DNA of 4,447 nt, from IMG/VR virus record IMGVR_UViG_2778261170_000007. One strand, given 5' to 3'. The stretch's first letter is position 1; each line of letters starts with the position of its first letter. The notes below the pieces were generated by a model. That model had not been told where the DNA came from. It worked only from the letters and a program-made list of their open reading frames with translations, and did not search any database. This DNA is from a virus. Taxonomy: Duplodnaviria; Heunggongvirae; Uroviricota; Caudoviricetes. Below are positions 1 through 4,447 of the stretch, piece by piece. A program made the translations under genes and the position numbers.

Positions 1-471
1 CCCGTTCCGTGGCCCTTAGAAACACCACCAACGGGCTGGCTAAAATGTAACGGAGCAGCATTTTCTTCTGAAAAGTATCCCAAACTGGCAAAAGCCTACC
101 CCACCAATAAATTACCGGATTTACGGGGAGAATTTATTCGCGGTTGGGATGATGGGCGCGGGGTGGATGCTGGCCGCGCTTTGCTTAATTGGCAGCCACA
201 CACAATTTTGGACCATGCACACTATATGGAATTATGGACAGGGGACGGACTCGCCGCAGGAAGTGCACGGGAAGGCGTAAATCCAGGAATACTAGCTACA
301 TACGGTGACGGGGGAATAGTTAAAACGGACGAACCCGGTCATAAGGTGCCTTCCTCACTACGAGCTATTAGCTCTCGTAGTGTTAAACGTTATGGTGAAA
401 TTAGTGGAAATGTAGGTACAGAAACTCGCCCTCGCAACGTTGCATTTAATTACATCGTAAGGGCGGCATAA
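1..471 (+). CDS. Tail-fiber tip / receptor-binding cassette A (tail-collar domain family), 5'-partial at window edge
   Basis: Frame 1 is open from nt 1 to TAA at 469-471. Translation PVPWPLETPPTGWLKCNGAAFSSEKYPKLAKAYPTNKLPDLRGEFIRGWDDGRGVDAGR...ETRPRNVAFNYIVRAA carries the tail-collar signature (P-x-GW-x-C-NG, LPDLRG-F-RG-D-GRG). HAH motif at 214-222. Nucleotide-identical in reverse complement to 3977-4447. Confidence 0.8.
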   Translation, partial: PVPWPLETPPTGWLKCNGAAFSSEKYPKLAKAYPTNKLPDLRGEFIRGWDDGRGVDAGRALLNWQPHTILDHAHYMELWTGDGLAAGSAREGVNPGILATYGDGGIVKTDEPGHKVPSSLRAISSRSVKRYGEISGNVGTETRPRNVAFNYIVRAA

Positions 472-483
472 AAACGTTGGTTT
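1..483. repeat. Left arm of a perfect >=483-bp inverted repeat (pairs with 3965-4447); truncated by the window edge
   Basis: Position x on the + strand equals the reverse complement of position 4448-x. Identity ends at 484 (g versus a), immediately after the conserved junction spacer. Confidence 0.85.
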
Positions 484-495
484 GGGGGAAGGCTC
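456..495 (+). repeat. Conserved 40-bp inter-cassette junction (candidate recombination/crossover site), A-B
   Basis: CGTAAGGGCGGCATAAAAACGTTGGTTTGGGGGAAGGCTC: last codons of one cassette, TAA, a 10-nt non-coding spacer AAACGTTGGT, and the first codons of the next. The identical 40-mer recurs at 3027-3066 and 3466-3505 on the minus strand. Confidence 0.5.
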
Positions 496-943
496 TGCAC
501 TGCCCGTTGGTGTGCCCGTTCCGTGGCCCTTAGAAACACCACCAACGGGCTGGCTAAAATGTAACGGAGCAGCATTTTCTTCTGAAAAGTACCCAAAACT
601 GGCAAAGGCTTACCCTACTAATAAATTGCCGGATTTACGCGGTGAATTTATTCGTGGCTGGGATGACGGACGTGGTGTGGATGCCGGGCGACAATTATTA
701 TCTTCACAGGGGGATGCAATAAGAAATATTGAGGGGTTCGCAGATGGCGGGATTGGCATGTCTTTTGATGCAATCAGAGGGGCTTTTTATGATGCAGGAA
801 CACGATCAGCGAGAATGCCGAATAACACAACTACTATAGACAAAACCGATGACCTTGGATTCGACGCCTCTCGTGTCGTGCCAACAGCTAATGAAAACCG
901 TCCTCGTAATATTGCCTTTAATTACATCGTAAGGGCGGCATAA
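482..943 (+). CDS. Tail-fiber tip / receptor-binding cassette B (tail-collar domain family)
   Basis: ORF with a TTG at the conserved module start (482) and TAA at 941-943. N-terminal block of subtype A (PLETPP, YPKLAKAYPTNK), a unique variable core with no HxH, and the conserved C-terminus ENRPRNIAFNYIVRAA. No ATG or convincing Shine-Dalgarno, so the true start is uncertain. Confidence 0.75.
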   Translation: MGEGSALPVGVPVPWPLETPPTGWLKCNGAAFSSEKYPKLAKAYPTNKLPDLRGEFIRGWDDGRGVDAGRQLLSSQGDAIRNIEGFADGGIGMSFDAIRGAFYDAGTRSARMPNNTTTIDKTDDLGFDASRVVPTANENRPRNIAFNYIVRAA

Positions 944-967
944 AAACGTTGGTTTAGGGGAAGGCTC
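928..967 (+). repeat. Conserved 40-bp inter-cassette junction, B-C (variant with TTA in place of TTG)
   Basis: Differs from the 456-495 junction by one substitution (TTG to TTA); identical to the minus-strand junction at 3953-3992. Confidence 0.5.
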
Positions 968-983
968 GGCGCTGCCCGTTGGC

Positions 984-1451
984 GTGCCTGTTCCATGGCC
1001 CTCAGCCACACCTCCAACGGGGTGGCTGAAATGCAATGGTGCAGCATTTTCTTCTGAAAAGTACCCAAATCTGGCAAAGGTTTACCCAACGTTAAAATTA
1101 CCTGATTTACGCGGTGAGTTTATCCGTGGTTGGGATGATGGGCGAGGGATTGACTCTGGTCGCTCTATTTTAAGCGAGCAAGGATATGCAACGGAGGATC
1201 ATGCTCACGGATTACCGTCAAAATCAACCGTAGCAACTGACCGCTCAATTAATTTCTACTTTGACGAGGCATGGGCTACTAGTGGTAATACGGGAGTTAT
1301 CAGATGGGGGAACACAAGCGATGCAGGATTGCCAGCCCCTAATTATGGAACTTTTAAAACATATAAACAGTCCGTAGCTAATTTAGGTACTGCTGGCTTA
1401 GAAACCCGCCCTCGTAATGTTGCATTTAATTATATTGTGAGGGCGGATTAA
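984..1451 (+). CDS. Tail-fiber tip / receptor-binding cassette C (tail-collar domain family); conserved module actually begins at 954
   Basis: The conserved module start codon is TTA at 954-956 (TTG in other cassettes); the first possible start is GTG at 984. The frame is open from 933. Subtype-B N-terminal block (PSATPP, YPNLAKVYPTLK), HAH motif at 1200-1208, C-terminus ETRPRNVAFNYIVRAD, TAA at 1449-1451. Confidence 0.7.
   Translation: MPVPWPSATPPTGWLKCNGAAFSSEKYPNLAKVYPTLKLPDLRGEFIRGWDDGRGIDSGRSILSEQGYATEDHAHGLPSKSTVATDRSINFYFDEAWATSGNTGVIRWGNTSDAGLPAPNYGTFKTYKQSVANLGTAGLETRPRNVAFNYIVRAD
987..1147. repeat. Left arm of a 161-bp perfect inverted repeat (pairs with 2333-2493) in the conserved 5' block of cassette C
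   Basis: 10-mer by 10-mer comparison of 987-1147 with the reverse complement of 2333-2493 shows identity, bounded by mismatches at 986 and 1148. Confidence 0.85.
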
Positions 1452-1456
1452 TTATA

Positions 1457-2068
1457 TCAACTGGCTGTAGAAAGTTGTTTTTCAGGCCAGTTGAGATCTG
1501 GTGCCGTGGTTAAATCCATCGCGTTCAGCTCGTCTATATAATCTAGCACGGAGTTAAGCTGCGTGGTTTCTGCCTGCGTCAACTTCCGTCCAGCCCGTAA
1601 TTTCAACTGAATCAGACTAATGGAATCCATCGCAGTATCAATCAATGACTGACGTTTTGTTTCTGCTGCCTCTACAGCTGCACTATGTTGAGCCTCAGTA
1701 TCAACCACCCATTTCTCTCCATCCCATTTGTCGTATGGTGTTAGCGGGGCGATAGTGGTTGTATTTTCCGGATAGTCACCCAACACCGTGATTTCTTCGG
1801 GATTCCCAGTGTCAATGCTATAGACAGTTTCGCCACGATGATCTGGCACATACTCCCATGAACTTAAATCCTCTGAACGGAGAATCGCATAACCTGCTTT
1901 ATGTGAGCCTGGAGCATCCAAACAAGAATTTGCCGGAATACCAACGCCAACAGCAAGATATTCAGTTGATGCAGAAATATATTCCCGATTACCACCATCA
2001 TAGTTATAAACGATAATGTTTCCTGCCTGTATGGCTATAAGTTCGCTATTTAATATCGCATTATCCAT
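1457..2068 (-). CDS. tfa: Phage tail fiber assembly protein (Tfa; Mu U / P2 G / lambda Tfa-like chaperone)
   Basis: 203-aa ORF with a canonical ATG at 2066-2068 and TGA at 1457-1459. The C-terminal region ...KWDGEKWVVDTEAQHSAAVEAAETKRQSLIDTAMDSISLIQLKLRAGRKLTQAETTQLNSVLDYIDELNAMDLTTAPDLNWPE matches, from memory, the conserved C-terminal domain of enterobacterial tail fiber assembly proteins (DTEA..., STAPDIEWP-like end). Its start overlaps the stop of the upstream cassette (TAATGG), indicating translational coupling. Confidence 0.85.
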   Translation of the reverse strand: MDNAILNSELIAIQAGNIIVYNYDGGNREYISASTEYLAVGVGIPANSCLDAPGSHKAGYAILRSEDLSSWEYVPDHRGETVYSIDTGNPEEITVLGDYPENTTTIAPLTPYDKWDGEKWVVDTEAQHSAAVEAAETKRQSLIDTAMDSISLIQLKLRAGRKLTQAETTQLNSVLDYIDELNAMDLTTAPDLNWPEKQLSTAS

Positions 2069-2526
2069 TATGCTGCTCTCACAATATAATTGAAGGCAAT
2101 GTTACGTGGGCGGGTTTCATTCCCCCCAGATAACTCCGTTCTGTATTGACTGGTAAATTTACCATTAATCGCTCCTTCTTGGACGGCGTTATCTGTCGAC
2201 AACAGACTATCCCCCCCTCTGTCATTTGGCACCAATACCGTGTTATCCCACGCGTCCCATGACCGAATATTATGATAATGACTTCCTGTTAACCACCCCT
2301 GTATGCTTAAGATGACCCTTCCCGCATCCACACCTCGCCCATCATCCCAACCACGGATAAACTCACCGCGTAAATCAGGTAATTTTAACGTTGGGTAAAC
2401 CTTTGCCAGATTTGGGTACTTTTCAGAAGAAAATGCTGCACCATTGCATTTCAGCCACCCCGTTGGAGGTGTGGCTGAGGGCCATGGAACAGGTACACCA
2501 ACGGGCAGCGCCGAGCCTTCTCCCAA
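2068..2526 (-). CDS. Tail-fiber tip / receptor-binding cassette D (tail-collar domain family), coupled to tfa
   Basis: TTG at 2524-2526, TAA at 2068-2070 overlapping the tfa ATG. Subtype-B N-terminal block, HYH motif at 2272-2280, C-terminus ETRPRNIAFNYIVRAA. Confidence 0.8.
   Translation of the reverse strand: MGEGSALPVGVPVPWPSATPPTGWLKCNGAAFSSEKYPNLAKVYPTLKLPDLRGEFIRGWDDGRGVDAGRVILSIQGWLTGSHYHNIRSWDAWDNTVLVPNDRGGDSLLSTDNAVQEGAINGKFTSQYRTELSGGNETRPRNIAFNYIVRAA
2333..2493. repeat. Right arm of the 161-bp perfect inverted repeat (pairs with 987-1147) in the conserved 5' block of cassette D
   Basis: See the left arm. Together the two arms bracket 1148-2332, which holds the cassette C variable core, tfa and the cassette D variable core. 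Confidence 0.85.
2341..2439. repeat. 99-bp perfect direct repeat, copy 1 (cassette D 5' block); copy 2 at 2865-2963
   Basis: 2341-2439 is identical to 2865-2963 (atcatcccaaccacggataaactcaccgcg...aaaatgctgc); flanking sequence is similar but has substitutions. Confidence 0.8.
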
Positions 2527-2552
2527 ACCAATGTTTTTATGCTGCCCTTACG
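2513..2552 (-). repeat. Conserved 40-bp inter-cassette junction, E-D (most divergent copy, 3 substitutions)
   Basis: Minus-strand sequence CGTAAGGGCAGCATAAAAACATTGGTTTGGGAGAAGGCTC. Confidence 0.45.
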
Positions 2553-3040
2553 ATGTAATTAAAAGCAACGTTGCGGGGGCGCATTGATATCCATGCCCCG
2601 GTAAAATTATCCTCTGCCGTCCTTTGAGTACCCGTTATGGAGTTATCTGCTGATGCTGGAACATAATCGCTATTATCTCCTGCTTTAGGATTAGCAGGGT
2701 TTCCAACAGTTATAACAGAATCAGCAGTAGCATAAGCGATACCTACTTTGACATTAGTAGTCAGATCGACACCGTAATAATCCTGCAAAGCTGTACGAAT
2801 AAATGTTGCAGTCTGACCACTTAGCAATGAACGCCCTGTATCAATCCCTCTCGAATCATCCCAACCACGGATAAACTCACCGCGTAAATCAGGTAATTTT
2901 AACGTTGGGTAAACCTTTGCCAGATTTGGGTACTTTTCAGAAGAAAATGCTGCTCCGTTACATTTCAGCCACCCCGTTGGCGGTGTGGCTGAGGGCCATG
3001 GAACAGGCACGCCAACGGGCAGCGCCGAGCCTTCCCCCAA
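2537..3040 (-). CDS. Tail-fiber tip / receptor-binding cassette E (tail-collar domain family)
   Basis: TTG at 3038-3040, TAA at 2537-2539. Subtype-B N-terminal block, the longest variable core (about 81 aa, no HxH), C-terminus MRPRNVAFNYIVRAA. Confidence 0.75.
   Translation of the reverse strand: MGEGSALPVGVPVPWPSATPPTGWLKCNGAAFSSEKYPNLAKVYPTLKLPDLRGEFIRGWDDSRGIDTGRSLLSGQTATFIRTALQDYYGVDLTTNVKVGIAYATADSVITVGNPANPKAGDNSDYVPASADNSITGTQRTAEDNFTGAWISMRPRNVAFNYIVRAA
2865..2963. repeat. 99-bp perfect direct repeat, copy 2 (cassette E 5' block)
   Basis: Identical to 2341-2439. Confidence 0.8.
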
Positions 3041-3066
3041 ACCAACGTTTTTATGCCGCCCTTACG
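3027..3066 (-). repeat. Conserved 40-bp inter-cassette junction, F-E
   Basis: Minus-strand sequence identical to the 456-495 junction. Confidence 0.5.
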
Positions 3067-3479
3067 ATATAATTAAACGCAATGTTACGAGGACGAATGG
3101 TTACATAATTAACCCCATCACCTCGTGAAGGCCCTGCAAATGAAAAACGGGAAAATCCTGGTTGGTTAGAAACAATTTGGTCATAGTTATTGATTGAATG
3201 ACCAGACCCAATGTCGAAATTACCTCCGTAATGAGAAAAACTTGTACCATCCTGCCCTGAAAGCAGGGTACGTCCCGCATCAATCCCGCGCCCATCATCC
3301 CAGCCACGGATAAATTCACCGCGTAAATCCGGTAATTTATTGGTGGGGTAGGCTTTTGCCAGTTTGGGATACATTTCAGAAGAAAATGCTGCACCATTGC
3401 ATTTTAGCCAGCCAGTTGGTGGTGTTTCTAAGGGCCACGGAACGGGCACACCAACAGGCAATGCAGAGCCTTCCCCCAA
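3051..3479 (-). CDS. Tail-fiber tip / receptor-binding cassette F (tail-collar domain family)
   Basis: TTG at 3477-3479, TAA at 3051-3053. Subtype-A N-terminal block (PLETPP, EMYPKLAKAYPTNK), the shortest variable core (about 56 aa), C-terminus IRPRNIAFNYIVRAA. Confidence 0.75.
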   Translation of the reverse strand: MGEGSALPVGVPVPWPLETPPTGWLKCNGAAFSSEMYPKLAKAYPTNKLPDLRGEFIRGWDDGRGIDAGRTLLSGQDGTSFSHYGGNFDIGSGHSINNYDQIVSNQPGFSRFSFAGPSRGDGVNYVTIRPRNIAFNYIVRAA

Positions 3480-3505
3480 ACCAACGTTTTTATGCCGCCC
3501 TTACG
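3466..3505 (-). repeat. Conserved 40-bp inter-cassette junction, G-F
   Basis: Minus-strand sequence identical to the 456-495 junction. Confidence 0.5.
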
Positions 3506-3948
3506 ATGTAATTAAATGCGATATTTCGTGGACGGGTTTCACTCCCGCCAGTATTACCAATACTCCCTCGAGAATGAAGTGTCGGTGATGGAATCAAATT
3601 CCCTCCTGTATTTGAGGCATCAAGCCCCCGTCCTTGTGTGTATGTTTTTTTGAAAATTGTCGCCAGCTCCCATTCATCTTTTGTGTCGTAACCATCATTG
3701 GCTACAACAATATGTCGGTGCTTTTCCAGCATTCCTGTCTGAATGCTCAATAAAGCACGTCCCGCATCCACCCCGCGCCCATCATCCCAGCCGCGAATAA
3801 ATTCTCCCCGTAAATCCGGTAATTTATTGGTGGGATAAGCCTTTGCCAGTTTTGGGTACTTTTCAGAAGAAAATGCTGCTCCGTTGCATTTTAGCCAGCC
3901 TGTTGGCGGAGTGGCTGAGGGCCACGGAACAGGTACGCCAACAGGCAA
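3490..3948 (-). CDS. Tail-fiber tip / receptor-binding cassette G (tail-collar domain family); conserved module extends to 3966
   Basis: The conserved module start is TTA at 3964-3966; the first possible start is TTG at 3946-3948. TAA at 3490-3492. Chimeric N-terminal block (PSATPP of subtype B followed by YPKLAKAYPTNK of subtype A), HRH motif at 3712-3720, C-terminus ETRPRNIAFNYIVRAA. Confidence 0.7.
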   Translation of the reverse strand: MPVGVPVPWPSATPPTGWLKCNGAAFSSEKYPKLAKAYPTNKLPDLRGEFIRGWDDGRGVDAGRALLSIQTGMLEKHRHIVVANDGYDTKDEWELATIFKKTYTQGRGLDASNTGGNLIPSPTLHSRGSIGNTGGSETRPRNIAFNYIVRAA

Positions 3949-3952
3949 TGCT

Positions 3953-3992
3953 GAGCCTTCCCCTAAACCAACGTTTTTATGCCGCCCTTACG
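3953..3992 (-). repeat. Conserved 40-bp inter-cassette junction, A'-G (TTA variant)
   Basis: Minus-strand sequence identical to the 928-967 junction. Confidence 0.5.
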
Positions 3993-4447
3993 ATGTAATT
4001 AAATGCAACGTTGCGAGGGCGAGTTTCTGTACCTACATTTCCACTAATTTCACCATAACGTTTAACACTACGAGAGCTAATAGCTCGTAGTGAGGAAGGC
4101 ACCTTATGACCGGGTTCGTCCGTTTTAACTATTCCCCCGTCACCGTATGTAGCTAGTATTCCTGGATTTACGCCTTCCCGTGCACTTCCTGCGGCGAGTC
4201 CGTCCCCTGTCCATAATTCCATATAGTGTGCATGGTCCAAAATTGTGTGTGGCTGCCAATTAAGCAAAGCGCGGCCAGCATCCACCCCGCGCCCATCATC
4301 CCAACCGCGAATAAATTCTCCCCGTAAATCCGGTAATTTATTGGTGGGGTAGGCTTTTGCCAGTTTGGGATACTTTTCAGAAGAAAATGCTGCTCCGTTA
4401 CATTTTAGCCAGCCCGTTGGTGGTGTTTCTAAGGGCCACGGAACGGG
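3965..4447. repeat. Right arm of the perfect >=483-bp inverted repeat (pairs with 1-483)
   Basis: Reverse complement matches 1-483 on the blocks checked; the arm runs to the window edge and so probably continues beyond it. Confidence 0.85.
3977..4447 (-). CDS. Tail-fiber tip / receptor-binding cassette A' (inverted identical copy of cassette A), 5'-partial at window edge
   Basis: The minus-strand frame is open to the window end, with TAA at 3977-3979. The reverse complement of 3965-4447 equals 1-483; this was checked on 1-180, 177-246, 241-300, 308-427 and the 3' junction. Confidence 0.8.
   Translation of the reverse strand, partial: PVPWPLETPPTGWLKCNGAAFSSEKYPKLAKAYPTNKLPDLRGEFIRGWDDGRGVDAGRALLNWQPHTILDHAHYMELWTGDGLAAGSAREGVNPGILATYGDGGIVKTDEPGHKVPSSLRAISSRSVKRYGEISGNVGTETRPRNVAFNYIVRAA

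What the first reader, a model, noticed from the sequence alone, without database searches (positions are those of the whole stretch)
1457..2118. A single Tfa chaperone for eight cassettes, with an invariant cassette C-terminus as a possible common docking element
tfa is translationally coupled to cassette D only (TAATGG overlap at 2066-2070), yet all eight cassettes end in essentially the same 16 residues (E/M/I-x-RPRN-V/I-AFNYIVRA-A/D). Tail-fiber assembly chaperones generally act on the distal part of the fiber, so one Tfa may serve whichever cassette is expressed by recognising this constant C-terminus. This differs from Mu and P1, where each alternative fiber segment has its own U or U' gene.
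Basis: inference. Interest (0 to 1): 0.45.

Follow-up and report, generated by a model that had tools for sequence, protein, structure and literature searches.

The report
One chaperone gene, many fibre tips
This is the invertible tail-fibre "tip library" of a P1-like phage-plasmid (the p15B Min type): seven alternative receptor-binding tips share one assembly-chaperone gene, and their shared C-terminus is an ancient structural strand, so the layout is known and the docking idea is plausible but unproven.

Summary
The sequence facts hold, with corrections. The window has one tfa gene (1457-2068, minus strand). It overlaps only cassette D (TAATG at 2066-2070). Every cassette ends in RPRN[VI]AFNYIVRA[A/D].

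There are seven distinct cassettes, not eight: the two truncated end copies are 100% identical inverted copies. The motif is conserved at protein level (pN/pS 0.03), not because of the recombination sites.

The locus is a Min-type multiple-inversion array of a P1-like phage-plasmid, a kind I recall being described for p15B around 1990-92. Relatives carry the constant fibre gene, a serine invertase and a single tfa.

Each cassette is a complete collar domain (T4 gp12/gp37 type) with a variable receptor-binding insert. The constant C-terminus and the constant N-terminal part together build that domain. The motif also occurs in T4 gp12, which is not listed as needing gp38, so it is first a fold element.

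Comparative data support a generalist Tfa. Near-identical Tfa N-domains sit next to unrelated inserts, including close relatives of cassettes A, C and G. Cassettes without their own tfa are under purifying selection.

Docking on the last 16 residues specifically is untested. How tfa is expressed when its segment is inverted is unexplained; cassette C is never co-oriented with it.

The parts
1..471 (+). Cassette A, cut at its 5' end by the window (156 codons plus stop). It has a collar domain and an 83-aa insert with an HxH motif. The C-terminal motif is at 421-468.
465..490 (+). Recombination (mix-like) site A|B: GGCATAAAAACG TT GGTTTGGGGGAA, core TT at 477-478. The left half-site contains the last Ala codon and the TAA of cassette A.
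   Evidence: the resemblance to hix/gix/cix sites is from memory
479..943 (+). Cassette B (insert without HxH). The C-terminal motif is at 893-940.
   Evidence: Phage SKA5 carries the same insert with its own tfa.
937..962 (+). Recombination site B|C, core at 949-950.
951..1451 (+). Cassette C. It ends in VRAD, has no downstream site, and is convergent with tfa across a 5-nt gap. The C-terminal motif is at 1401-1448.
1457..2068 (-). tfa, the only tail-fibre assembly gene (203 aa). The N-domain (about residues 1-105) is variable between relatives. The C-domain is conserved and homologous to Mu U.
2068..2529 (-). Cassette D. Its stop codon overlaps the tfa ATG (TAATG, 2066-2070). The C-terminal motif is at 2071-2118. 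The insert carries SHYHN (HxH).
2518..2543 (-). Recombination site E|D, core at 2530-2531.
2537..3043 (-). Cassette E. The C-terminal motif is at 2540-2587.
3032..3057 (-). Recombination site F|E, core at 3044-3045.
3051..3482 (-). Cassette F. The C-terminal motif is at 3054-3101.
3471..3496 (-). Recombination site G|F, core at 3483-3484.
3490..3969 (-). Cassette G. The C-terminal motif is at 3493-3540.
3958..3983 (-). Recombination site A(H)|G, core at 3970-3971.
3977..4447 (-). 'Cassette H', an identical inverted copy of cassette A (471/471), cut at the same base by the window end.

Best explanation
The window is the invertible tip-cassette array of a Min-type (p15B-like) serine-invertase system in a P1-like phage-plasmid.

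How the array works:
- Outside the window lie the constant fibre gene Sc and the invertase.
- Inversion between oppositely oriented 26-bp sites fuses one cassette in frame to Sc (...VLNYL|GLGEGSA...).
- Each cassette encodes a complete collar domain of the T4 gp12/gp37 type. The conserved N-terminal part and the last 13-16 residues form that one domain. The unrelated 58-83-aa middle is the receptor-binding insert.

The role of tfa:
- The single tfa (Mu U / lambda Tfa / T4 gp38 class) sits in the only segment bounded by two sites, [D > tfa > < C]. By the topology of the system this segment always lies where forward and reverse cassettes meet.
- Inferred: this Tfa is a generalist. It helps trimerise whichever cassette is fused to Sc by acting on the shared collar scaffold or the nascent C-terminal ends, not on the insert.
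- Inferred: it is made as a distal cistron of the late R-S operon whenever its segment is co-oriented with Sc. It is coupled directly only in the Sc-D isomer.

Shown here: anatomy, homologies, protein-level conservation, natural promiscuity of the Tfa clade, and selection on cassettes that lack their own tfa.
Inferred: the binding surface, the need for Tfa by each cassette, and the expression logic.
For: Family and layout:
- About 95-kb IncY / P1-like plasmids match at 92-98%.
- In L001 and other loci the order is R, Sc + cassette, cassettes, one tfa, cassettes, then a serine recombinase (PF00239 + HTH_7).
- The Sc junction and its site are seen. The window holds six sites, two forward and four reverse.
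- The unit [D > tfa > < C] recurs in nearly all of the 15 related arrays, which together hold 12 insert types and many arrangements.
- A sister plasmid's segment is reported as 99% identical to p15B min (PMC5786510).

Collar fold:
- PF07484 hits every cassette.
- PDB sequence hits are T4 gp37 (2XGF), gp12 and 9cuy, each with the C-terminal motif aligned.
- The AF2 model is confident in the collar and moderately so in the C-terminal strand. Its best Foldseek hits are 2xgf (E 3.6e-6) and 1ocy.
- gp37 domain D10 comprises residues 811-881 plus 1010-1026 (PMC6957217).

Protein-level constraint: pN/pS is 0.03 for the motif.

Generalist Tfa:
- One Tfa N-domain clade pairs with at least 10 insert types.
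- 32 locus pairs have Tfa N-domains at least 93% identical with inserts under 35% identical.
- The Tfa N-domain type follows the collar subtype in L094, L095, L117, L123 and L125. Spearman rho is 0.72 with the collar against 0.30 with the insert.
- Inserts of cassettes without a tfa have pN/pS of 0.06-0.46.
- P1 U is essential (PMC10695390).
- The Tfa profile hits Mu U, 5yvq_B, at E 2.9e-12.
Against: - No binding or co-fold evidence exists. The AF2 monomer model is poor in the insert (pLDDT below 50).
- The only solved Tfa-fibre complex (Mu) has a tip that the cassette profile does not recognise. There, as summarised in PMC9608196, the variable Tfa N-domain binds the fibre.
- The window-type Tfa subclade is almost always next to a D-type insert.
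- The B-type cassette in SKA5 has a different Tfa N-domain, 31/105 identical.
- Cassette C can never be co-oriented with tfa.
- In 8 of 12 assembled arrays tfa is antisense to Sc.
- No sigma-70-type promoter above chance and no P1 late-promoter motif is found in the window.
- The correlation between collar and Tfa can be explained by shared ancestry or linkage.
- gp12 has the same motif, and only gp57A, not gp38, is listed as its folding helper.
Confidence: 0.55

Rival explanations
1. Tfa is dedicated to D. It is the cognate chaperone of cassette D only, a relic of a two-state tip1-tfa1 / tfa2-tip2 segment. The other cassettes fold without it, using host chaperones or the constant upstream gene R.
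For: - Stop/start overlap exists only with D.
- The D-tfa pairing holds in the related arrays where D is intact.
- The window-type Tfa subclades T1/T2 pair with D-type inserts in 23 of 24 cases.
- The B cassette in SKA5 uses a Tfa with a different N-domain.
- Cassette C is never co-oriented with tfa, and tfa is antisense to Sc in most assemblies.
- No internal promoter was found.
- R is constant and falls in PHROG 2032, 'tail fiber assembly protein'.
- gp12 has the same fold, and only gp57A is listed as its folding helper.
Against: - Close relatives of cassettes A, C and G in simpler prophages are each directly coupled to a Tfa of this family, which suggests these tips need one.
- Near-identical Tfas serve unrelated inserts.
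- L015 pairs a D-clade Tfa (94% N-domain identity to L014's Tfa) with a different insert.
- P1 U is essential.
Confidence: 0.25
2. Orientation gates fibre production. All cassettes need Tfa, but it is made only when the [D-tfa-C] segment is co-oriented with Sc. Roughly half of the isomers, and every Sc-C isomer, would then give defective or fibre-less particles. This would be a cost of the shuffling system, or a second level of switching.
For: - The topology places the segment at the convergence point in either orientation.
- No promoter motif occurs in the array, whereas exact AAGTTACTT late-promoter motifs lie upstream of R and of a holin-family gene in L001.
- Cassette C and tfa are separated by only 5 nt.
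Against: - Cassette C is intact and 99-100% conserved across arrays, which is hard to reconcile with a cassette that can never work.
- Weak promoters, or promoters of other types, are not excluded by the scans.
Confidence: 0.15
3. The invariant C-terminus is a DNA-level feature. On this view it belongs to the recombination site or is homogenised by gene conversion between cassettes, and is not a protein feature.
For: The left half-site overlaps the last Ala codon and the stop codon. The flanks are long near-identical repeats.
Against: - Synonymous divergence in the 13 motif codons is near saturation (pS 0.645) while pN is 0.019.
- Cassettes C and D keep the motif without any downstream site.
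- The same motif ends T4 gp37 and lies at the C-terminal end of gp12, and it is kept in all but one of the 32 aligned sequences.
Confidence: 0.03

Closest known systems
Min multiple-inversion region of plasmid p15B (Sandmeier et al. 1990, 1991, 1992; details from memory, papers not held)
   Same: P1-related IncY backbone, a Din-family serine invertase, a constant fibre gene whose 3' end is exchanged at crossover sites inside the coding sequence, several tightly packed alternative 3' cassettes, and one U/Tfa-like gene inside the invertible DNA. A sister plasmid's 5-kb segment is reported as 99% identical over 92% coverage to p15B min (PMC5786510).
   Different: From memory, p15B was described with six crossover sites in 3.5 kb. 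This window shows six internal sites plus two cut ends, with seven distinct cassettes. Related plasmids carry 3-10 or more cassettes, drawn from at least 12 insert types. I could not compare directly with the p15B sequence.
Mu G segment (S/U, S'/U'), P1 C segment (S/U, S'/U') and e14 Pin
   Same: A serine invertase switches the 3' end of the tail-fibre gene. The Tfa gene lies inside the invertible DNA. The Tfa family is shared: the profile hits Mu U at E 2.9e-12.
   Different: Those systems have two states, and each alternative carries its own Tfa (P1 U and U'; SKA5 and Omnitron layouts). Here there are many cassettes and one tfa. The Mu S tip is not recognisably collar-type.
T4 gp37 tip with gp38, and lambda Stf with Tfa
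   Same: The collar domain is formed by an N-terminal part plus the last ~17 residues, with the receptor-binding part as an insertion (PMC6957217). gp37 ends in ...NIAFNYIVRLA. The chaperone gene lies immediately downstream. Chaperones are interchangeable between different tips (PMC9659904).
   Different: Those have one fixed tip per genome and no inversion. The gp37 insert is a long iron-binding needle, whereas the inserts here are 58-83 aa.
T4 gp12 receptor-binding domain
   Same: Collar plus a knitted metal-binding head. An HxH motif occurs in cassettes A, C, D and G. The C-terminal motif is ETRPWNISLNYIIK. Foldseek hit 1ocy.
   Different: Only gp57A, not gp38, is listed as a folding helper for gp12 (PMC3004832). 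So the shared motif cannot by itself signal Tfa dependence.
R64 shufflon (Rci, PilV C-termini)
   Same: A multiple-inversion library of alternative C-terminal receptor-binding ends fused to a constant gene.
   Different: It uses a tyrosine recombinase, acts on a pilus adhesin, and has no chaperone gene in the array (from memory; cited only in reference lists).

Membership tests
Din-family serine-invertase multiple-inversion system (p15B Min type) | Several crossover sites of about 26 bp (two half-sites around a 2-bp core), present in both orientations | tested here: met
   Six sites with 0-2 mismatches to GCATAAAAACGTTGGTTTGGGGGAAGG: two forward and four reverse. None is expected in shuffled sequence. 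They are aligned.
Din-family serine-invertase multiple-inversion system (p15B Min type) | Adjacent serine recombinase gene (resolvase/invertase fold with a C-terminal HTH) | tested here: met
   The gene is not in the window. In the homologous loci L001, L002 and L130-L135 a 190-aa recombinase flanks the array: PF00239 at 2e-51 plus HTH_7.
Din-family serine-invertase multiple-inversion system (p15B Min type) | A constant 5' gene part fused in frame to a cassette at a site | tested here: met
   In L001 the Sc-A fusion reads ...SIQSVLNYL|GLGEGSALPVGVPVPWP, with the site TTCTTAATTACC TT GGTTTGGGGGAA.
Din-family serine-invertase multiple-inversion system (p15B Min type) | Evidence that inversion actually occurs (isomeric arrangements) | tested here: met
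   The 15 related arrays show different orders, orientations and Sc fusions of the same cassettes. The window itself holds both an A-B and an A-G junction, with identity ending just past the crossover core.
Din-family serine-invertase multiple-inversion system (p15B Min type) | Fis-dependent recombinational enhancer | not tested
   From memory it is expected inside the invertase gene, which is outside the window.
Tail-fibre assembly proteins (Mu U / lambda Tfa / T4 gp38; PF02413) | Significant match to the family profile and to a solved member | tested here: met
   PF02413 at 105.4 bits (cut-off 22.1), residues 78-197. phrog_105 at 1e-92. The profile of 21 relatives hits 5yvq_B, Mu U, at E 2.9e-12. 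A single-sequence search found nothing.
Tail-fibre assembly proteins (Mu U / lambda Tfa / T4 gp38; PF02413) | The gene lies immediately downstream of the fibre's 3' end, usually with stop/start overlap | tested here: met
   TAATG with cassette D. The same overlap is flagged for 100 of 238 cassette ORFs in the fetched loci.
Tail-fibre assembly proteins (Mu U / lambda Tfa / T4 gp38; PF02413) | Modular build: a variable fibre-binding N-domain and a conserved helical C-domain (North et al. 2019, as summarised in PMC9608196) | tested here: met
   Against the SKA5 Tfa, the N-domain is 31/105 identical and the C-domain 72/98. See also alignment A3. The fold itself was not modelled.
Tail-fibre assembly proteins (Mu U / lambda Tfa / T4 gp38; PF02413) | Chaperone activity on, and binding to, the fibre tip | not testable with these tools
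   This needs co-expression or a multimer prediction.
Collar-domain fibre tips (PF07484; T4 gp12 / gp37 D10 type) | Collar profile match in the N-terminal part | tested here: met
   All eight cassette copies score 54-57 bits against a cut-off of 24.
Collar-domain fibre tips (PF07484; T4 gp12 / gp37 D10 type) | The C-terminal residues return to complete the collar, and the receptor-binding part is an insertion | tested here: inconclusive
   The motif aligns to the last residues of gp37 and to the C-terminal end of gp12. gp37 D10 comprises 811-881 plus 1010-1026 (PMC6957217). The AF2 model has a strand at 146-150 with block-mean pLDDT 69-81, and its best folds are 2xgf and 1ocy. I could not read the model coordinates to check strand pairing.
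Collar-domain fibre tips (PF07484; T4 gp12 / gp37 D10 type) | HxH metal-binding motif in the insert | tested here: inconclusive
   Present in A (DHAHY), C (DHAHG), D (SHYHN) and G (KHRHI). Absent in B, E and F.

The most novel reading that the evidence does not exclude
The lone Tfa may be a true universal adaptor that reads the invariant collar scaffold, including the closing C-terminal strand. Any insert flanked by that scaffold would then be a plug-and-play tip. In addition, the orientation of the tfa-bearing segment may act as a second, hidden switch deciding whether the fused cassette yields functional fibres at all. Cassette C would be either a Tfa-independent tip or one served by an as yet unseen route of tfa expression.
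Probability: 0.2. Interest if true: 0.55.

Novelty: new member of a known kind. Interest (0 to 1): 0.3.

Why it matters
If one chaperone really serves every collar-type tip, these P1-like arrays are a natural toolkit for retargeting phages. At least 12 insert types were seen here. A new receptor-binding insert could be dropped between the constant collar flanks without supplying a matching chaperone.

It would also tell us what Tfa/gp38-class chaperones recognise, which is solved structurally only for Mu. These phage-plasmids are common in clinical E. coli and Klebsiella and some carry resistance genes such as mcr-1, so their host-range machinery has practical relevance.

The architecture itself is long known, and the interchangeability of lambda Tfa and T4 gp38 already points the same way. 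A specialist would find the idea reasonable rather than surprising.

Tried and rejected
- **Single-sequence PDB search with Tfa:** no hit. Only a profile of relatives reached Mu U.
- **Cassette profile against the PDB:** it does not reach Mu S. The Mu S-U complex therefore cannot be used as a docking template.
- **Original papers:** the p15B papers (PMC53420, PMC206102, PMC329034), the P1 genome paper, Johnson's review and North et al. 2019 are not held. What I say about them is from memory or from citing papers.
- **Sigma-70 promoter scan:** 11 sites against 7.4 +/- 3.3 expected, so no evidence for a tfa promoter. No terminator lies between cassette C and tfa.
- **P1 late-promoter motif:** AAGTTACTT followed by a -10 element was inferred from two exact copies upstream of R and of a holin-family gene in L001, and from memory. 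It is absent from the window even with 2 mismatches.
- **AF2 monomer of cassette D:** only the collar and the C-terminal strand are usable (mean pLDDT 59.7). The insert is unreliable and the coordinates could not be read.
- **Correlation of Tfa N-domain with collar versus insert:** rho 0.72 against 0.30, but confounded by linkage and ancestry, so I treat it as suggestive only.
- **A D-Tfa fusion or multimer co-fold:** not attempted. The tool folds a single chain and accepts only window sequences or sequences returned by the homologue search.
- **DNA-level explanation of the motif:** rejected on pN/pS.
- **Colinear match to the window:** no complete E. coli genome or PLSDB plasmid covers 80% or more of it in one place. 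Whether the A duplication is real therefore stays open.
Full report
**1. What is in the window**

The 4447-bp window holds three cassette ORFs on the plus strand:
- A, 1-471, cut at its 5' end
- B, 479-943
- C, 951-1451

On the minus strand it holds one Tfa-family gene (1457-2068) and five cassette ORFs:
- D, 2068-2529
- E, 2537-3043
- F, 3051-3482
- G, 3490-3969
- H, 3977-4447, cut at its 5' end

The tfa ATG overlaps the stop codon of D (TAATG; CATTA on the plus strand at 2066-2070). C and tfa are convergent, with 5 nt between their stop codons.

Every other cassette is followed at once by a conserved 26-27-bp element, GGCATAAAAACG TT GGTTTGGGGGAA. There are six copies, two forward and four reverse, and none is expected by chance.

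A and H are the same sequence. They are 471/471 identical in inverted orientation, and the identity continues to position 483, just past the central TT of the element. So there are seven distinct cassettes. The window ends are perfect inverted repeats cut at the same base. This is what a graph walk across two inversion isomers (A joined to B, and A joined to G) would give. However, complete plasmid assemblies also show duplicated cassettes (L130, L002), so a real duplication is not excluded. No complete E. coli genome or PLSDB plasmid is colinear with 80% or more of the window.

**2. What kind of locus it is**

The window matches about 95-kb IncY / P1-like phage-plasmids of E. coli, Klebsiella and Salmonella at 92-98% in pieces. 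It also matches a 95-kb Escherichia phage record.

In these records the array lies between the P1 tail-fibre operon and a 190-aa serine recombinase (PF00239 + HTH_7). The operon consists of gene R and then a fibre gene of up to 875 aa (L001), rich in Phage_fiber_2 repeats.

The fibre gene runs in frame through a site into a cassette...SIQSVLNYL|GLGEGSALPVGVPVPWP..., with the site TTCTTAATTACC TT GGTTTGGGGGAA.

Fifteen related arrays carry the same cassettes in different orders and orientations, with different cassettes fused to the constant part. Together they hold at least 12 insert types.

This is the architecture I recall for the Min region of p15B (Sandmeier et al. 1990-92; those papers are not held). 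A published sister plasmid reports its 5-kb segment as 99% identical to p15B min (PMC5786510).

A tblastn search with Tfa found 83 plasmid records with a match at 99% identity or more. Every such record listed has a single Tfa-like place. 'One tfa per array' is therefore a property of the family.

**3. The cassettes and their constant ends**

Every cassette has a Pfam Collar domain (PF07484) in its N-terminal part. The N-terminal 51 residues compared are 88-100% identical between cassettes, while the middle 58-83 residues are 16-28% identical. The last 13 residues are RPRN[VI]AFNYIVRA in all cassettes.

The motif is constrained at protein level. Its 13 codons have pS 0.645 and pN 0.019, a ratio of 0.03. 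Only the last Ala codon and the TAA fall inside the recombination site. C and D have no downstream site yet keep the motif. The DNA-level explanation is rejected.

The motif is not specific to this system:
- Cassette D aligns with the end of T4 gp37 (...NIAFNYIVRLA, the last residues of 2XGF).
- It aligns with T4 gp12 (ETRPWNISLNYIIK).
- It aligns with an internal domain of another solved short tail fibre, 9cuy (ENRPKNIAVMYIIK).

For gp37, domain D10 (residues 811-881 and 1010-1026) has the collar fold of gp12, and the receptor-binding domain D11 is an insertion into it (PMC6957217).

An AF2 model of D is confident for the collar (block means 81-93) and moderately so for a C-terminal strand (69-81), but not for the insert. 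Its best structural matches are 2xgf (E 3.6e-6) and 1ocy.

The constant N-terminal part and the constant C-terminus are thus two halves of one domain at the base of the tip. The variable middle is the receptor-binding insert. In space the C-terminus is not the distal end of the fibre. For gp12, which carries the motif, only gp57A is listed as a folding helper, not gp38 (PMC3004832). The motif's conservation is therefore first of all structural.

**4. The Tfa**

The 203-aa protein matches PF02413 (105 bits) and phrog_105. A profile of 21 relatives hits Mu U (5yvq_B) at E 2.9e-12.

Relatives show the modular pattern described for Mu Tfa, as summarised in PMC9608196: a variable N-domain that binds the fibre and a conserved helical C-domain. 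Against the Tfa of phage SKA5, the N-domain is 31/105 identical and the C-domain 72/98.

**5. Can one Tfa serve many tips?**

I fetched 129 loci encoding relatives of this Tfa and extracted 92 cases where a tfa directly follows a collar-type cassette.
- One clade of Tfa N-domains (90% identity or more by single linkage; 48 members; about 70-80% identical to the window's) is coupled to at least 10 unrelated insert clusters. Among them are close relatives of G (77%), C (75%) and A (98%).
- Thirty-two locus pairs have N-domains at least 93% identical with inserts under 35% identical. For example, L051 and L080 are 98% against 20%.
- Even the D-associated subclade has one such case, L014 and L015 (94% against 26%).
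- The very different SKA5-type N-domain goes, in five other loci, with another collar subtype (IGIPFFWPS...RPRNIAFNFLVRAK) and with various inserts.
- Across 66 distinct pairs, Tfa N-domain identity tracks collar identity (rho 0.72) more than insert identity (0.30). Linkage and common ancestry could produce this, so it is only suggestive.
- Cassettes that have no tfa of their own are under purifying selection in their inserts (pN/pS: A 0.17, G 0.06, E 0.08, F 0.17, B 0.46 on few changes). They are evidently used.
- The literature agrees in kind. [quoted passage not shown] P1 U is essential, while the silent U' is not (PMC10695390).

**6. What argues the other way**

- The window-type Tfa subclades sit next to D-type inserts in 23 of 24 pairs.
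- In SKA5 an insert identical to B's is coupled to its own, different Tfa.
- The topology matters. Inversion keeps all forward sites before all reverse sites, so the only two-site segment, [D > tfa > < C], always lies at the convergence point. It is the only composite segment in the window and in nearly all of the 15 related arrays.
- Consequently C is never co-oriented with tfa. For every other cassette, tfa is co-oriented only when that segment points the right way.
- In 8 of 12 assemblies where Sc is visible, tfa is antisense to Sc. In three of those, Sc is fused directly to the convergent C-type cassette.
- I found no sigma-70-type promoter above chance.
- I found no copy of the P1 late-promoter motif. 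AAGTTACTT plus a -10 element is exact upstream of R and of a holin-family gene in L001, but absent from the window with up to 2 mismatches.
- Gene R, constant and upstream of Sc, is filed in PHROG 2032, 'tail fiber assembly protein'. It could be a general factor.

How Tfa reaches the fibres in antisense isomers, or whether those fibres need it, is unexplained.

**7. Verdict**

- **Observation:** real, with corrections. There are seven distinct cassettes, and the constant part also includes the N-terminal collar.
- **Interpretation:** partly supported. A generalist Tfa is the best reading (about 0.55). The evidence points to the shared collar scaffold as the common element. The last 16 residues alone are not shown to be a docking signal.
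- **Rivals:** a D-dedicated Tfa (0.25), an orientation-gated supply that wastes about half of the isomers (0.15), and a DNA-level origin of the motif (refuted).
- **Novelty:** the locus is a further member of the long-known p15B Min kind. The contrast with Mu and P1 is correct but not new.
- **Interest:** modest. The value lies in a testable, practically useful hypothesis for phage retargeting and in the unexplained expression logic around cassette C.

Noticed in passing
window 1-483 and 3965-4447: The window ends are perfect inverted repeats. Cassette A appears in both orientations, and the identity stops just past the crossover core. This looks like an assembly walk over two inversion isomers (A-B and A-G junctions). 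Complete plasmids L130 and L002 also show duplicated cassettes, up to 15 per array.
   Followed up: partly
window 951-1451 (cassette C) with 1457-2068 (tfa): Cassette C is convergent with tfa across a 5-nt gap and, by the topology of the system, can never be co-oriented with it. It is nevertheless intact and 99-100% conserved in related arrays, and it ends in VRAD instead of VRAA. Isomers with Sc fused to this convergent cassette appear in three assemblies (L010, L131 and, in a related group, L024).
   Followed up: partly
window 356-382 (and its mirror 4066-4092): A near-perfect 27-nt palindrome, CACTACGAGCTATTAGCTCTCGTAGTG, lies inside the coding sequence of cassette A (family D7). I do not know whether it has a function.
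   Followed up: no
inserts of cassettes A, C, D and G (for example D, about 2270-2290, minus strand): HxH motifs (DHAHY, DHAHG, SHYHN, KHRHI), like the metal-binding histidines of T4 gp12 and gp37, occur in four of the seven inserts. B, E and F lack them, so the inserts fall into at least two structural classes.
   Followed up: partly
L001 4442-4876 (gene R, upstream of the constant fibre gene): The constant gene R has no Pfam match but falls in PHROG 2032, 'tail fiber assembly protein'. It is co-transcribed with the fibre gene in every isomer and could be a general assembly factor.
   Followed up: partly
L001 4393-4411 and 12342-12360: Exact AAGTTACTT motifs followed by a -10-like hexamer lie upstream of R and of a holin-family gene (lydA by P1 gene order). 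These appear to be the P1 late promoters. None occurs in the array.
   Followed up: yes
L014-L026 (IMG/VR contigs of about 5-38 kb): A second group of loci carries a Tfa 81-84% identical to the window's and has the same layout: several cassettes, one tfa and a convergent cassette. I did not identify which elements these contigs belong to.
   Followed up: no
L094, L095, L117, L123, L125: A second collar subtype (IGIPFFWPS...RPRNIAFNFLVRAK) is consistently coupled to the SKA5-type Tfa N-domain, whatever the insert. Phage SKA5 itself combines that Tfa with a window-type collar, so it looks like a recombinant.
   Followed up: partly
cassette ends, for example window 455-471: The codons for VRAA (GTA AGG GCG GCA TAA) do several jobs. 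They encode the end of the motif and contain an AAGGG Shine-Dalgarno-like sequence, which precedes the tfa ATG in cassettes coupled to a tfa. Here they form the left half-site of the recombination site. In D they read GTG AGA GCA GCA.
   Followed up: no
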